Below, piece after piece: positions 14,787-49,242 of a stretch of DNA of 64,000 nucleotides. Both the position numbers and the translations under genes were made by a program. The notes beneath the pieces were generated by a model that was not told the origin of the DNA, did not search any database, and worked only from the letters and a program-made list of their open reading frames with translations. Every line of letters begins with the position of its first letter. The stretch's first letter is position 1. The stretch comes from the human T2T-CHM13v2.0 reference genome, Homo sapiens, in assembly GCF_009914755.1 (NCBI RefSeq), contig NC_060945.1, one strand, 5' to 3'.

Positions 14787-16510
14787 CCGCGGCGGGGTCA
14801 AAAAGTCCCGGCGGCGGGGAGAAAAAAGCCGTGGTGGCAGGGTGCAAAAAGCCACGGCGCCAAAAAGTCAGGGCAGCGGGGGCAAAAAACCACGCCGGCG
14901 GGGGCAAAAAGCCACGGCAGCAAAAAGCCGCTGAGACGGGGCAAAAAAGCCGCGGGGGCAAAAAGCCGCGGCAGCAAAAAGCCTGGGCGGCGCGGTCAAA
15001 AAGCCATAGCGCTGGGGGCAAAAAGCTGCGGTGGCAAAAAGCCTCGGCGGCAGGGGTAAAAAGCCAGGGCGGCTAGGCCAAAAAGCCACGTTGGCAAAAA
15101 GCGGCGGCAGGGGCCAAAAGCCGCGGCGGCGGGGGAAAAGAGCCGCGGCGGCGGGGGAAAAGAGCCGCGGCGGTGGGGGCAAAAAGCCACGGTGGCAAAA
15201 AGCTGGGGTGGTGGGCGCAAAAAGCCGCAGCGGCAAAAGCCATGGCGGTGGGGACAAAAAGCCGCGACGGTAATAAGCCGTACCGGCGGGGGCAAAAAGC
15301 CGCAAAAAGACGCGGCAGCGGGGGCAAAAAGACACAAAAAGCCGCGGCGGCAGAAAGCCAGGGCAGCGCGGTCAAAACGCCGCAGCAAAAAGCCGCGACG
15401 GCAGGGGCAAAAAGGCGCAAAAGCCCCGGCGGCGGGGGGAAAACGTCGCCGCGGCGGGGGCAAAAAGCCTCGGCAGCGCGGGCAAAAAACCACGCAGGCG
15501 GGAGCAAAAAGCCGCGGCAGCGGGGGGCAAAAAGCCACAAAGGCGGGGGCAAAAATGCCACGGCAGCAAAAAGCCGCTGAGACGGGGTAAAAAAGCCGTG
15601 GGGGCAAAAAGCCGCGGCGCGGGGGCAAAAATCAGCGGGAGCGGGGGCAAATTTCCACAAAAAGCTTCGTCGGCGGAGGCAAAAAGCCGCGGGGATGGGG
15701 GAGAAAAACACGGCGGCGGGGGCAAAAAGCCGCGGCAGCAAAAAGCCTCGGCGGCGCGGGTAAAAAACTGCGGCGGTGGGGGCAAAAAGCCGCGGGGATG
15801 GGGGAAAAAGCCGCGGGGGCAAAAAGCCACGACGGCAAAAAGCCACGGCGCTGGGAGCAGAAAGCCGCCCCGGCGGCGGCGGCGGCGGCGGCGGGAAAAA
15901 GCTAGGGCGGCTAGGCCAAAAAGCCGCGGCGGTGGGGGTAAAAAGCTGCGCGGGGGCCAAAAGCCGCGGCTGCGGGGAAAAAAGCCGCAAAAAGCCGCGG
16001 CGGCGGGGGCAAAAAGCCACGATGGCAAAAAGCTGCAATGGTGGGTGCAAAAAGCCTCAGCGGCAAAAGCCATGGTGGCGGGGGCAAAAAGCCGCGACAG
16101 CGGGGAGAAAAAAGACGCAAAAAGCCACGGTGGCGGGGGCAAAAAGCCGTGACTTAGGGGGCAAAAAGCCGCGACGGTAATAAGCCGTACCGGCAGGGAC
16201 AAAAAGCCGTAAAAAGACGCGGCAGCGGGGGCAAAAAGACACAGAAAGCCGCGGCGGCAGAAAGCCGCTGAGACGGGGGAAAAAGCCGCGTCGGCGGGGG
16301 CAAAATCAGCGGCGGCGGGGGCAAAAATCCACAAAAGTCGCGGCGGCGGGGGCAAAAAGCCGTGGCAGCGGGGGAAAAAAGTCGCAAGAAGCCGCGGCCG
16401 GCGGCGGGGGAAAAAAGCGGCGGGGAGCGAAAAGTCGCGGCGGCGGGGGTAAAAAGGCGTGGCGACAAAAAGCCGCTGAGAAGGCGGAAAAAAGCCGCGG
16501 CAGCGGGGGC
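14787..16510. repeat. GC-rich CAAAAAG-type tandem array 1 (unit about CAAAAAGCCGCGGCGGCGGGGG)
   Basis: About 1.7 kb of degenerate 10/16/22-bp units, CpG-dense and T-poor. This repeat class has been described at human pericentromeric duplicon boundaries. Confidence 0.95.
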
Positions 16511-16649
16511 AAAATAGTGGAGATGGGGTGGAAGGCGGCACAGCTTGGCATTGCTGGAGTGTGATGTGATAGGAAAAGTGCAGCCGAAGACAAAAAAAGA
16601 TGTAAGTAGGCTTGACTCAGTGCAGCTAAGAACCTAGATGTTATCTTGA
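16511..16649 (+). repeat. Right flank shared by both GC arrays, copy 1 (copy 2 at 49103-49242)
   Basis: Direct repeat, roughly 90% identical by eye (about 13 differences in 140 bp). Confidence 0.93.
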
Positions 16650-18929
16650 GGGTATTAACTAATAAGCAGTTTAAATCAGAATGCCACATTCTGATTTTTT
16701 GTATGTTCACATTTGGCAGGCATAGATACTGTTTGAAGAGAGGAAAGTCAGTAGATAGACCTTACAAATATGTGCCAAGTCTAGAAACAAGAGACTAGGG
16801 GGATAAGGACCTTTCAAAATAAAATGCAAGATTTGAAAACTGATTGGCTGGGGCATGAGGAAAAGGCAGGTCTTTAAGGTCAATCCCTGTTTTGCTTTAA
16901 GTTGTTAGCAGGTGGTTTTATCACATATTGTAGAATATGTCATTTCAGTTTTGAACATCTTGAGTTAAATTGTCCTAACGTATCTTATGAATTTGATTTT
17001 CTTCCCTGGGAAGCTAATATTTCAAAAACTTAAAGAGTATAGATTTCCAACTTGTATCCAATTTATAAAATTATCTGTAGGGTGCTGGTTTCAGGAGGAG
17101 GCTCATGACTATTCTATTTGCAGAGGATATATCAGGAGTTAACAACAGCTTCAATATTTGTGGACGACCAGTTAACTAAGCCACCTCTTAGTGTATTTAG
17201 ATGGGAAATCTTAGCTGAATATATTCAATAATCAACCAAGAGTGACTAAAAAATTCAATATTTAAGTATATTTCATTGTAATTAATTTGAATTGAAGCAG
17301 CCATATACAGCTAGTATTTACTACATTGAACAATGCAAATACGAGGAAAAAATTAATAACCATCTCTAATACCACATGCCAAAATCTTCATAAATTTATT
17401 CTAGCTAAAGGAGTTTATCAGAAGCAGCAATTGAAAGCACTAACTAAACCAGCTGGGGTTAATTCACTGTCATTCTCTCAGAACCATCTCTTCTCTGAAC
17501 AAAACAAGTAGAAGAGTTCATTGTGAATCTACATTCTCCTTGCCTATTTTAAGGTTTTGATGTTGACACTAATTTGTGAAATCCCTCCTGTGGTGTGATA
17601 TTTCGTTTTCCTTGCTTTCTGTTAGGACAAGAATGCTTCAGCTCTTAATTTAAAATTATGTTTCTCCTTCCTAGGTTGAGTGAACTTAGAATGCATTCTC
17701 TGACATATCCAAGTTTTTGTTAATATGAATTTGGGGGAAAAAGCATACTTAATTAGCTAAGACTTCTTATTCTAGGCTTGACCCTGTGTTTGACATCTTT
17801 TGAATCTGTAGTTGCATAGGCTGCTCTCTGACACCGGTTAGTGGCCTGGAAGCTATATTAACGTTAGGGGAGGTGGTGTGTGAGCATTACAGGTATCCTT
17901 GCAAGGAAAGACTTGTCTTATCTCAATACGTCTTTTTTTTGCACACAAGAAAGTCAGTGTTTGAGTCTTCTAAAATCTTCCTATTTCCAAGTTGCAGAGT
18001 ACCATTGATTCCTAAACAAAGATCTAATTTTTGAGTCAGAGACGTGGTAAGGTAGTGAATCACCATTATAATTTAACAGTCTTCAAGATAAAATTATCTC
18101 TCTGATAGTAAGATTTTGCCCAACTATTAAGATATTTGGGTGTTTCGTTAAGAATGGAAGACGCTAGTCTCTTGAGCAGAGACTATAAAGGCCTCAGATG
18201 ATCATTTATAATTATATGCTCTTTTCTTTAACACCTTCAACACAGTTGGAAGCAGCCGATATTCCCCAGAGTTGTTGTGTTTTTGAAACCAAATGCATGG
18301 TTCAGTGGTAGAAAACTGGGTTGATCCAAGCTGTTTTCAATAAACACTTCATTTCAGGTGACCTATTTCATATTAAATAATCTCTAGATCCTGTCTTCCA
18401 AACTAACTAGATCAGATAACCTACCCTGGATTTTCCCCTTTTAGGGTCTGTGAGCTGCAGTCACTTTTGTGAAAATGATTGCAATGACAAGATAGAGGTG
18501 TAGACCGGGAAAATGTTTTGACTAATTTAAGCATAGTGGTATTTCATATGAGAATTTAAGTGACACACATTTGAAAATTATAATGGAGTCTCTTGGCTGA
18601 GCTTTAAAGAAAAATAGCGTGTAGGCTAAAAAGGGAACTGTTACCTCTCCTAAAATCAGAAAGATGTTACAGTAATTCTCCATTCTCTAGAATTATCAGG
18701 AAGCACCTTTGTGATGATTTACTTTTGCTCTTGGGAGTGTGAGCCCGTGTAGTTGTGGAACCATCAATTAGAATGATGGCTTTCTGATCCCAAAGTCATT
18801 CGTTTGGAAAACAATATTTTTCATAAATTTGAAAGTGAGAAGGTTTGATCTTGCCATTCCCAAGTAACTCTCTTAATGAGAGGCATCAGCCTGCTTCAGT
18901 GACAGCTGTCACCTTCCAGTGCTGAGAGT

Positions 18930-48047: not shown

Positions 48048-48430
48048 CTCCATGGTCCTTATCTTCTGCTGGGTGAGGTCCTTGGACACAGCGCACTTGG
48101 TGCGCAGCCCGCGCAGGCTGCCAACGGAGATGCGGATGAGCTTCTGGAGCTGCCCGCACTGCCGCAGCGCCTGGCTGGCCGCGACTCCTGCGCCTCCCTC
48201 CGCGATAGCCCTGTTACCCCCGCCACCGTCCTCCTTCCTCTCTCCCATCGGGGCCGAGCGCAGCGCTGCTCTATGCATGCTGCAGCGGCCCAGGAGCGGA
48301 GCCTAAGGCGTGGGTGTCTAGGCAAGGAACCCCCAAACCGGGAGAGCTGGACCAGGAGCGACCCTCGGCACTGCCTTAGCCAGGACGCCAGTAGATCTGG
48401 CAGCCGAATCTGCCGATCCCGCCCTCAGAC
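48048..48430 (-). pseudogene. KSR1: Duplicated KSR1 exon 1 (coding 48048-48278 plus GC-rich 5' leader), unprocessed fragment
   Basis: [21 protein letters not shown]...[41 protein letters not shown] is colinear with remembered KSR1 aa 1-77 (about 80% identical). Phase-0 donor GAG|GTAACG at 48047. No second exon recognised. Confidence 0.92.
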
Positions 48431-49102
48431 CCGCGGCGGTAGGGGCAAAAAGCTGCGACGGCGGGGTTAAAAAGCCGCAGCGGTAAAAACCTGCGGCGGC
48501 GGGAGTAAAAAGCCGCGTCGACAAAAAGCCGTGGCGGCGGGGAAAAAGCCGCGGTGGTGGGGGCAAAAAGCCGCGGCGGCGGGGGCAAAAAACCACAAAA
48601 AGCCGCGGCGGCGGGCGCAAAAAGCCGCAACGGTGGGGGCAAAAATCCGGGGCGGTGGGGGAAAAAGCCGGGGCGACGGGGGCAAAAAGCTGCGGTGACG
48701 GGGGCAAAAAGCCGTAAAAAGCCGCAGCGTCGGGGGCAAAAAGCAGCAAAAAGCCTGGGCGGCGGGGGCAAGAAGCTGCGGCGGGAAAAACCTGGGGCGG
48801 CGGGGGCTAAAAGCCGTAAAAAGCCGCGGCGCCGGGGGCCAAAAGCCATAAAAAGCCGCGGCGGCGGTGGCAAAAAGCCGCGGCTGAAAAAGTCGCGGTG
48901 GCGGGGCCAAAAAGCCGCGGCGGCGAGGGGAGAAAGACGCAAAAAGCTTCAGCGGCAAAAAGCCGCGGCGGCGAGGGCAAAGAGCCCCAAAATGCCGCGG
49001 CGGCAGGGGCTAAATTCCGCGAGGCTGGGGGCAGAAAGACGTAAAAACCCGCAGCGGCGGCAGGAAAAATCCACGGCGGCAAAAAGCCGCGTCGGCGGGG
49101 GC
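48431..49102. repeat. GC-rich CAAAAAG-type tandem array 2
   Basis: Same unit and orientation as 14787-16510, about 670 bp. Confidence 0.95.
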
Positions 49103-49242
49103 AAAATAGTGGAAATGGGGTAGAAGGCCAGCACAGCTTTGCATTCCTGGAGTGTGATGTGGAAGGAAAAGTGCAGAGGAAGACAAACAAAGATGTAAGT
49201 AGGCTTGACTCAGTGCAGCTAAGAGCCCAGATGTTATCTTGA
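49103..49242 (+). repeat. Shared array flank, copy 2
   Basis: Direct repeat of 16511-16649. Confidence 0.93.

What the first reader, a model, noticed from the sequence alone, without database searches (positions are those of the whole stretch)
14787..49242. Module seen twice: 5' gene fragment, GC array, shared 140-bp flank
Seen: two same-orientation CAAAAAG arrays, each starting abruptly at CCGCGGCGG (14787, 48431) and each ending in the same ~140-bp flank. Each has on its left a minus-strand N-terminal exon of an unrelated signalling gene (ROBO2a, KSR1) cut off from its native upstream sequence. Known: GC-rich repeats of this class have been reported at pericentromeric duplicon borders. Inference: array plus flank is a reusable acceptor cassette that captures gene 5' ends at a preferred register and might supply a CpG-rich replacement promoter.
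Basis: partly seen in the sequence, partly recalled or inferred. Interest (0 to 1): 0.8.

Follow-up and report, generated by a model that had tools for sequence, protein, structure and literature searches.

The report
Known pericentromeric duplication-border repeat, seen twice
The two "modules" are two copies of a known GC-rich repeat that marks the joins between pieces of copied DNA near human centromeres, and the shared flank is just the first 145 bases of a piece copied from chromosome 7, so this is ordinary patchwork rather than a device that captures gene starts.

Summary
The sequence facts hold. Two same-strand arrays of a ~22-bp GC-rich unit lie at 14787-16510 and 48431-49105. Each begins CCGCGGCGG and each ends in the same 145-bp flank.

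The interpretation mostly fails.
- The flank is the first 145 bp of a duplicon whose array-free parent is chr7:53,283,495 onward (7p12.1). In module 1 it runs on for at least 17.5 kb. In module 2 it is cut after 145 bp.
- This one array/7p12 junction occurs at least 105 times in CHM13, nearly all pericentromeric or on acrocentric short arms.
- On its other side the array meets at least eight different sequences. I classified 100 of 105 copies: KSR1 5' end 57, IGK-like 18, an internal 7p12 piece 12, a chr19 piece 4, IGH-like 4, and three rarer partners.
- Only KSR1 is a demonstrated gene 5' end. Junction registers differ between classes.
- Array 1 touches a 330-bp chr19 fragment, not ROBO2. The ROBO2a-like exon lies 3.6 kb away and keeps 3.25 kb of its native upstream DNA.

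This matches the GC-rich repeat I recall from Eichler and Horvath as marking pericentromeric duplicon borders.

One open lead: the true KSR1 5' region carries unit-like sequence exactly at the breakpoint.

The parts
10870..14457 (-). Duplicon copied from chr3:75,987,477-75,991,073 (3p12.3). It holds ROBO2 upstream DNA and the first exon of the long isoform. Its left limit was not mapped.
   Evidence: 94-95% colinear match to chr3. Six copies were found: chr3, chr20, chr21, chr13 and chr22 twice.
11098..11208 (-). ROBO2a-like exon-1 ORF of 37 aa, followed by a GT splice-donor-like site.
   Evidence: The ROBO2a name is recalled, and one search returned only unnamed primate proteins.
14457..14786 (+). 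330-bp fragment of chr19:35,472,053-35,472,384. This is the true left neighbour of array 1.
   Evidence: 96% match. The alignment shows homology ending at ...AATTCC, immediately before the array.
14787..16510 (+). Array 1: about 80 GC-rich units containing CAAAAAG, 1.72 kb.
   Evidence: GC 0.645 and CpG observed/expected 1.18.
16511..33979 (+). Duplicon colinear with chr7:53,283,495-53,302,899 (7p12.1). The right limit was not reached.
   Evidence: 88-93% colinear blocks. The chr7 locus has no array to its left.
46655..48437 (-). Duplicon from the KSR1 5' end. It matches chr17:28,397,947-28,398,617 and 28,405,387-28,406,500, that is exon 1 and parts of intron 1.
   Evidence: (85% and 91% identity).
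48045..48278 (-). Coding part of the KSR1 exon-1 pseudo-copy.
48431..49105 (+). Array 2: about 33 units, 0.68 kb.
   Evidence: CpG observed/expected 1.28.
49106..49248 (+). Flank copy 2: the 7p12 duplicon cut after about 145 bp.
   Evidence: 132 of 142 bases are identical to the chr7 source.
49253..49379 (-). Alu-like fragment that begins the unrelated sequence replacing the rest of the 7p12 duplicon.
   Evidence: 76-84% matches to other Alu-like copies in the window. The name Alu is recalled.

Best explanation
Both modules are copies of one old pericentromeric duplicon junction. A CpG-rich minisatellite of ~22-bp units containing GCAAAAAGC is fused on its right to the proximal end of a duplicon copied from 7p12.1.

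That single junction was then spread to more than 100 sites by block duplication among pericentromeres and acrocentric short arms (the 'swapping' step of the two-step model). The 140-bp flank has no role of its own. It is what remains of the 7p12 duplicon in the commonest sub-lineage, where unrelated Alu-containing DNA replaces everything beyond 145 bp.

The left partners differ because later rearrangement breakpoints fell inside the array. KSR1|array is one such event, since copied at least 57 times. chr19-piece|array (module 1) is another, now present 4 times.

Shown here: the anatomy, the parent loci, the copy counts, and the single origin of the right junction.

Inferred: that the array is a breakage-prone or recombination-prone joint. 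The likely routes are misaligned exchange between arrays or microhomology-mediated joining.
For: - **Source of the flank.** chr7:53,283,495-53,302,899 is colinear with window 16511-33979 at 88-93% identity, and the chr7 locus has no array.
- **Single right junction.** I searched 36 array-bearing copies plus the chr7 source with a border pattern. It found the border in 29 of the 36, and all 29 carry the same GGGGCAAAATAGTGGA-type junction apart from point changes. The other 7 were not matched by my pattern.
- **Two forms of the flank.** Of 22 copies fetched with 1.6 kb of right-hand sequence, 16 have the 145-bp form and 6 the long 7p12 form. The long form occurs with left partners A, C and D, and with E in L047.
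- **Left partners of 105 flank copies.**
  - A, KSR1 5' end: 57
  - E, IGK-like: 18
  - B, internal 7p12 piece chr7:53,292,062-53,294,363: 12
  - C, chr19 piece: 4
  - F, IGH-like: 4
  - D, AT-rich DNA of untraced origin: 2
  - G, ATTCC-type satellite: 1
  - H, 1q43: 1
  - chr7 source without array: 1
  - unclassified: 5

- **Block copying.** The two modules are 32,593 bp apart on chr21, 32,589 on chr13 and 32,751 on chr22, at 99-100% identity.
- **Microhomology at the three junctions with readable parents.** CCGCGGC for KSR1, CC for chr19, AAAA for chr7.
- **Breakpoints cluster in the array.** There are at least 7 changes of left partner and at least 1 of right partner (L048) within arrays of 0.2-3 kb. 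By contrast there is 1 breakpoint in the first 1.6 kb of the 7p12 side and none in the 1 kb of the KSR1 side, where 40 of 40 scored copies are full length.
- **Model in print.** Passages of PMC2566985 state the seeding-and-swapping model.
Against: - **Ascertainment.** Copies were found through the flank, so a constant right junction is partly built in. Arrays that lost the flank are under-counted: 8 of 31 arrays found by an array pattern have no known flank within 6 kb.
- **No formal test.** The higher breakpoint density in the array was not tested statistically.
- **Incomplete lists.** Only 100 of 109 core matches were listed by the tool, and 5 copies remain unclassified.
- **Parentage of 7p12.** That the 7p12 locus is the parent rather than a derived copy rests on its lack of array and its non-pericentromeric place. 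No outgroup genome was available.
- **CpG retention.** The arrays keep CpG observed/expected values of 1.18-1.28, while the adjoining KSR1 fragment kept only 31 of 61 parental CpGs. A purely passive, methylated junk repeat would not obviously do this.
- **Literature.** The primary papers on this repeat could not be opened, so its identification with the published repeat is recalled.
Confidence: 0.8

Rival explanations
1. Array plus flank is a reusable acceptor cassette that captures gene 5' ends in a preferred register and gives them a CpG-rich replacement promoter.
For: - One partner (KSR1) really is a 5' end cut about 150-180 bp upstream of its start codons and facing the array.
- The arrays have CpG-island composition.
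- The two window junctions both start CCGCGGCGG.
- The flank holds a GAT|GTAAGT splice-donor-like site that is kept in most copies.
Against: - Only 1 of 8 partner classes is a shown 5' end. The others are a chr19 fragment without an ORF, an internal 7p12 piece, satellite DNA, a 1q43 piece, and IGK-like and IGH-like DNA. In those last two, no V-exon motif was found within 1.8-3.1 kb of the junction.
- The ROBO2a-like exon is 3.6 kb from the array and keeps its own upstream DNA.
- Registers differ between classes. Three of 8 fall in one 4-position bin, with binomial P about 0.16 (my arithmetic).
- In KSR1 the CCGCGGC is native sequence.
- The hub's table lists no gene in the window.
Confidence: 0.05
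2. The repeat family was born from the KSR1 promoter and 5'-UTR region. On this reading the array is a hyper-expanded end of the KSR1 duplicon that formed at the KSR1|7p12 join, and every other partner came later through breaks in the array.
For: - In the true KSR1 locus the sequence exactly at and beyond the breakpoint is unit-like, reading GCCGCGGCAGCAAAGCGAAAGCCGCGGCG in window orientation.
- The 40-nt windows at the breakpoint score best against the arrays among 233 windows of the 1.2-kb locus (19-20 versus a mean of 10.5).
- The 40 nt strictly beyond the shared CCGCGGC score 16, a value reached by 8 of 500 shuffles.
- KSR1 is the commonest partner (57 of 105). It occurs with both the long and the short 7p12 form (L027, L046).
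- There is a precedent. The CAGGG junction repeat is present at an ancestral locus and as one block in macaque (passages of PMC2566985).
Against: - The similarity is short and lies in a CpG island, where GCCGCGGC-like words are common. The shuffle control kept only base composition.
- The same data fit homology-guided joining of KSR1 to an array that already existed.
- Arrays exist without KSR1 or flank nearby, for example L051 on chr18.
- The order of events was not established.
Confidence: 0.13
3. The array is a passive passenger. It has no special tendency to break, and the many partners only reflect the very high rearrangement rate of pericentromeric DNA together with my flank-based ascertainment.
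For: - Copies were collected through the flank.
- Duplicon breaks also occur outside arrays, for example at window 14457, at about 44908, and at 145 bp into the flank.
Against: - There are at least 8 partner changes inside arrays of 0.2-3 kb, against 1 in the adjoining 1.6 kb and none in the adjoining 1 kb.
- Satellites and low-complexity repeats are reported as enriched at duplication breakpoints (passages of PMC11925013).
Confidence: 0.15

Closest known systems
GC-rich pericentromeric junction repeat, known as the 'GCTTTTTGC' or GGGCAAAAAGCCG repeat. Recalled from Eichler et al. 1997 Hum Mol Genet 6:991 and Horvath et al. 2000 Genome Res 10:839. I saw neither paper, only their entries in a reference list.
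   Same: - The unit contains GCAAAAAGC, which reads GCTTTTTGC on the other strand.
- It is a GC-rich tandem array.
- It lies exactly between duplicons of different parentage.
- It is spread over pericentromeres of many chromosomes.
- It is absent from the parent loci.
   Different: Nothing essential. The details added here are the 7p12 origin of the shared flank, a census of partners in a complete assembly, and the unit-like sequence at the KSR1 breakpoint. I could not check whether these are in those papers or their supplements.
CAGGG pericentromeric repeats (Eichler et al. 1999; described in passages of PMC2566985).
   Same: It is a GC-rich repeat associated with pericentromeric duplicon dispersal in great apes.
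   Different: The unit is different. For CAGGG an ancestral block is documented (IGL locus, one site in macaque), whereas no ancestral block is known for the present repeat.
Two-step 'seeding and swapping' model of pericentromeric duplication (stated in passages of PMC2566985).
   Same: - Several parent loci (3p12, 19q, 7p12, 17q11, 1q43, IGK, IGH) are seeded side by side.
- Whole mosaics are then copied between chromosomes at 95-100% identity.
   Different: That is a model of the process, not a sequence family. It does not by itself explain why joins lie in this repeat.
CpG-island promoters that drive chimeric transcripts.
   Same: The arrays have the composition of a CpG island (GC 0.65, CpG observed/expected above 1).
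   Different: No transcript, transcription start site or methylation evidence was available. The composition follows simply from the repeat unit.

Membership tests
Pericentromeric GC-rich junction repeat (GCTTTTTGC / GGGCAAAAAGCCG type; definition recalled) | Tandem GC-rich unit containing GCAAAAAGC | tested here: met
   Reading of both arrays and the TRF consensus units.
Pericentromeric GC-rich junction repeat (GCTTTTTGC / GGGCAAAAAGCCG type; definition recalled) | Lies at the border between duplicons of different parent loci | tested here: met
   Array 1 lies between a chr19 piece and the 7p12 duplicon. Array 2 lies between the KSR1 (chr17) duplicon and the 7p12 stub.
Pericentromeric GC-rich junction repeat (GCTTTTTGC / GGGCAAAAAGCCG type; definition recalled) | Dispersed over pericentromeric regions of many chromosomes | tested here: met
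   The listed places lie on chr1, 2, 7, 9, 10, 13-18, 21, 22 and Y, and nearly all are next to centromeres.
Pericentromeric GC-rich junction repeat (GCTTTTTGC / GGGCAAAAAGCCG type; definition recalled) | Absent from the parent (ancestral) loci of the flanking duplicons | tested here: met
   There is no array at chr7:53.283 Mb, chr17:28.398 Mb or chr19:35.472 Mb. KSR1 does carry 1-2 unit-like words.
   1 of 8 partner classes (KSR1) qualifies. Gene content of classes C, D and H could not be annotated with these tools.
   At least four different start points occur among the 8 classes.
   L048 is KSR1|array|other sequence and L051 is an array with neither partner. 23 of 31 sampled arrays have a known flank.
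CpG-island promoter | GC above 55% and CpG observed/expected above 0.6 over more than 200 bp | tested here: met
CpG-island promoter | Transcription start, an unmethylated state, or an annotated transcript | not testable with these tools
   No expression or methylation data were available. The hub's RefSeq table lists no gene or functional element in the window.
Retrotransposon-like composite element (SVA-type) | Fixed 3' end with poly-A and target-site duplication | tested here: not met
   The right side runs on colinear with 7p12 for at least 17.5 kb, or is cut at 145 bp. No poly-A or duplication was seen at the borders.

The most novel reading that the evidence does not exclude
The whole GCAAAAAGC junction-repeat family is an expanded fragment of the KSR1 promoter and 5'-UTR. 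On this reading it arose once at the join between the KSR1 and 7p12 duplicons. It then acted as the breakage and recombination hot spot through which at least seven further duplicons were stitched into hominoid pericentromeres.
Probability: 0.13. Interest if true: 0.45.

Novelty: already known. Interest (0 to 1): 0.18.

Why it matters
It matters little beyond bookkeeping. The finding is an instance of a repeat long associated with pericentromeric duplicon borders.

There are three useful by-products:
- a clean dissection of a newly assembled 21p mosaic into pieces from 3p12, 19q, 7p12 and 17q11;
- the demonstration that a 'shared flank' can be a truncated duplicon rather than a functional part;
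- a testable lead on where the repeat came from, namely KSR1.

If the arrays do concentrate breakpoints, they are candidate fragile joints in acrocentric short arms.

Tried and rejected
- **Pfam SAM_KSR1 (PF13543) search of the genome.** It found nothing, with 7 candidates scored. I located the true KSR1 locus with a 29-nt exon pattern instead.
- **Naming the ROBO2a-like exon.** The 37-aa query was too short. A 45-aa read-through returned 3 unnamed primate proteins and no ROBO2.
- **Immunoglobulin V-exon and recombination-signal motifs.** A scan of the class E and F left neighbours printed nothing, so whether they are gene 5' ends stays open.
- **Retroelement or SVA-like reading.** Rejected, because there is no fixed 3' end.
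- **Tandem or circular 7p12 unit as the explanation for class B.** The 7p12 copy in the window runs past the class B end point at chr7:53,294,363, so class B is a secondary break.
- **Literature searches.** Searches of the held library found no text on this repeat unit and no paper combining KSR1, pericentromeric and segmental duplication.
- **Primary papers.** Horvath 2000, Horvath 2005, Guy 2003 and Grunau 2006 are not held.
- **Full fetch of all 100 listed copies.** I classified the rest by junction patterns and small fetches.
- **Extent of the 7p12 duplicon beyond window 33979.** One search listed only closer pericentromeric copies, so the limit was not resolved.

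
Full report
**What is in the window**

Reading the sequence and Tandem Repeats Finder confirm two same-strand arrays of a GC-rich unit containing CAAAAAG. The units are mostly about 22 bp, with a 16-bp variant. The arrays lie at 14787-16510 and 48431-49105. Both open with CCGCGGCGG. Both end in ...GGGGGCAAAATAGTGG and are followed by a shared stretch, 16511-16655 versus 49106-49248. That stretch is identical in 128 of 146 alignment columns. Beyond it the two copies are unrelated, and copy 2 enters an Alu-like fragment. 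A 35-nt core of the flank occurs 109 times in the assembly at up to 3 mismatches and 0 times in the reversed control. The repeat is therefore real and far from chance.

**The left neighbours**

Left of array 2, the minus strand encodes a KSR1 exon 1. Its 68-aa translation matches the KSR1 CC-SAM chains 5vyk and 2lpe at E 1e-21. The true KSR1 locus is at chr17:28,398,279, found with a 29-nt exon word that has 54 matches genome-wide. Homology between the window and that locus ends inside CCGCGGC at the array border, and no array exists there.

Left of array 1 the picture differs from the finding.
- A ROBO2a-like first-exon ORF exists at 11098-11208 on the minus strand. The name is my recall, and one search returned only unnamed primate proteins.
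- It is followed by 3.25 kb of colinear chr3:75.99 Mb sequence, up to window 14457.
- Then comes a 330-bp fragment of chr19:35,472,053-35,472,384.
- Only then does the array begin.

Array 1 therefore does not touch ROBO2.

**What the flank is**

One flank copy, at chr7:53,283,581 (7p12.1, not pericentromeric), has no array. From chr7:53,283,495 this locus is colinear with window 16511-33979 at 88-93% identity. That is as far as I fetched. The flank is thus the first 145 bp of a 7p12 duplicon at least 17.5 kb long. I fetched 22 copies with right-hand sequence. Six have this long form: the chr7 source, module 1 and its chr13 twin, two chr7q11 copies, and one KSR1-linked chr16 copy. The other 16, including module 2, are cut at 145 bp and continue in common unrelated DNA. 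I then searched 36 array-bearing copies plus the chr7 source with a border pattern. It found the border in 29 of the 36, and all 29 have the same array/7p12 junction apart from point changes. The remaining 7 were not matched by my pattern. This indicates one original junction that was copied many times.

**Census of partners**

I knew 105 flank copies: 100 of the 109 listed, plus 5 more. I classified them using junction-spanning patterns, a KSR1 exon pattern and direct reading of fetched copies. The left partners are:

| Class | Left partner | Copies |
|---|---|---|
| A | KSR1 5' end | 57 |
| E | sequence related to the IGK locus | 18 |
| B | internal piece of the same 7p12 duplicon, chr7:53,292,062-53,294,363 | 12 |
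| C | chr19 piece (module 1 and copies on chr13 and chr22 twice) | 4 |
| F | sequence related to the IGH locus | 4 |
| D | AT-rich DNA of untraced origin | 2 |
| G | ATTCC-type satellite | 1 |
| H | piece of 1q43 | 1 |
| - | chr7 source, no array | 1 |
| - | unclassified | 5 |

The arrays start at different points of the unit:
- near GCCGCGG in classes A, C and G;
- at GGGGCAAAAAG in class E;
- at GCAAAAAG in class D;
- mid-unit in classes B and H.

Three of 8 fall in one 4-position bin, which is not remarkable (P about 0.16, my arithmetic). No V-exon or recombination-signal motif lies within 1.8-3.1 kb of the class E and F junctions.

**Copies are not independent**

The two modules lie 32,593 bp apart on chr21, 32,589 on chr13 and 32,751 on chr22. 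Identity between these blocks is 99-100%. The whole mosaic is therefore shared by acrocentric short arms. A third KSR1|array|flank module lies just right of the window.

**Arrays without the flank**

A near-perfect double-unit pattern sampled 31 arrays. Of these, 23 have a known flank within 6 kb and 8 do not. I read two arrays that lack it. L048 on chr7q11 is KSR1|array|other sequence. L051 on chr18p11 is a 140-bp array with neither partner. The flank is therefore not an obligatory part.

**How it most likely works**

Shown:
- one array/7p12 junction of single origin;
- at least eight left partners and at least one alternative right partner;
- absence of the array from three parent loci;
- 2-7 bp of shared bases at the three junctions whose parents I could read.

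Inferred: the array is a preferred site of breakage and rejoining, by misaligned exchange between arrays or by microhomology-mediated joining.

Breakpoints appear denser in arrays. There are at least 8 within 0.2-3 kb of array. The adjoining 1.6 kb of 7p12 has 1, and the adjoining 1 kb of KSR1 has none, since 40 of 40 scored copies are full length there. This comparison is not a formal test and suffers from my flank-based ascertainment.

The divergence from the parent loci is 7-9% for 7p12 and for the KSR1 intron. By the calibration quoted in PMC2566985 (about 10% corresponds to 30-40 million years; passage seen), this suggests old seeding events. That dating is inference.

**An open lead**

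In the true KSR1 locus the bases at and just beyond the breakpoint resemble array units. The windows at the breakpoint score best of 233 windows against the arrays. The 40 nt strictly beyond the shared CCGCGGC score 16, a value reached by 8 of 500 composition-only shuffles. Either this similarity guided the join, or the array is an expanded end of the KSR1 duplicon. The arrays also keep a CpG observed/expected ratio of 1.18-1.28, while the KSR1 fragment kept 31 of 61 parental CpGs. I cannot explain that difference.

**Comparison with what is known**

By recall, this is the GC-rich 'GCTTTTTGC' or GGGCAAAAAGCCG repeat described at pericentromeric duplicon borders by Eichler and colleagues in 1997 and by Horvath and colleagues in 2000. 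I could not open those papers. The held library has no text on the unit and no paper combining KSR1 with pericentromeric segmental duplication (search 73).

What I did read:
- passages of PMC2566985 on the seeding-and-swapping model and on CAGGG repeats;
- passages of PMC11925013 on repeats enriched at duplication breakpoints.

All four defining features of the junction repeat, as I recall them, are met here.

**Verdict**

The gene-start-capture interpretation is not supported. The thing itself is an already known kind of element. Interest is low.

Noticed in passing
window 9231-11021: A 1.4-kb AT-rich array of (TA)n and ATATATATATTC units at 9415-10833 is self-complementary over about 1.8 kb. 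It lies 265 bp from the ROBO2a-like exon. It looks like a palindromic AT-rich repeat of the kind linked to fragility.
   Followed up: no
outside the window, chr21:8,073,752-8,074,473 (about window 75,750-76,470): A third KSR1|array|flank module lies in the same orientation, 27 kb right of module 2. It is mirrored on chr13:11,048,554-11,049,275.
   Followed up: partly
window 14787-16510 and 48431-49105 versus 48000-48430: The arrays keep CpG observed/expected ratios of 1.18-1.28, while the adjoining KSR1 fragment retains only 31 of 61 parental CpGs. This could reflect homogenisation, youth or low methylation of the arrays.
   Followed up: no
window 44908-45257: A TCATT-rich repeat marks a duplicon break (query position 1259). 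In other copies (chr7:58.6 Mb, chr15:17.8 Mb, chr17:27.9 Mb) it appears as a tandem array with a period of about 350 bp.
   Followed up: no
window 43650-44905: This stretch has a 90% match at chr16:53,479,452-53,480,711. That place is non-pericentromeric and may be the parent of a further duplicon in the mosaic.
   Followed up: no
chr20:26,234,066-26,243,741 (own genome): A chr20p11 copy of the chr3 (ROBO2 upstream) duplicon ends at the same chr3 edge as the window (14457). No chr19 piece or array appears among the scored hits there.
   Followed up: no
chr1:142,280,913-142,285,512 (own genome): A KSR1-linked array seems to be at least 4.6 kb long, much longer than the 0.2-3 kb seen elsewhere.
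   Followed up: no
window 16590-16605 and 49183-49198: The flank holds a GAT|GTAAGT motif resembling a 5' splice site on the + strand. It is intact in most of the 100 listed copies. No transcript evidence was available.
   Followed up: no
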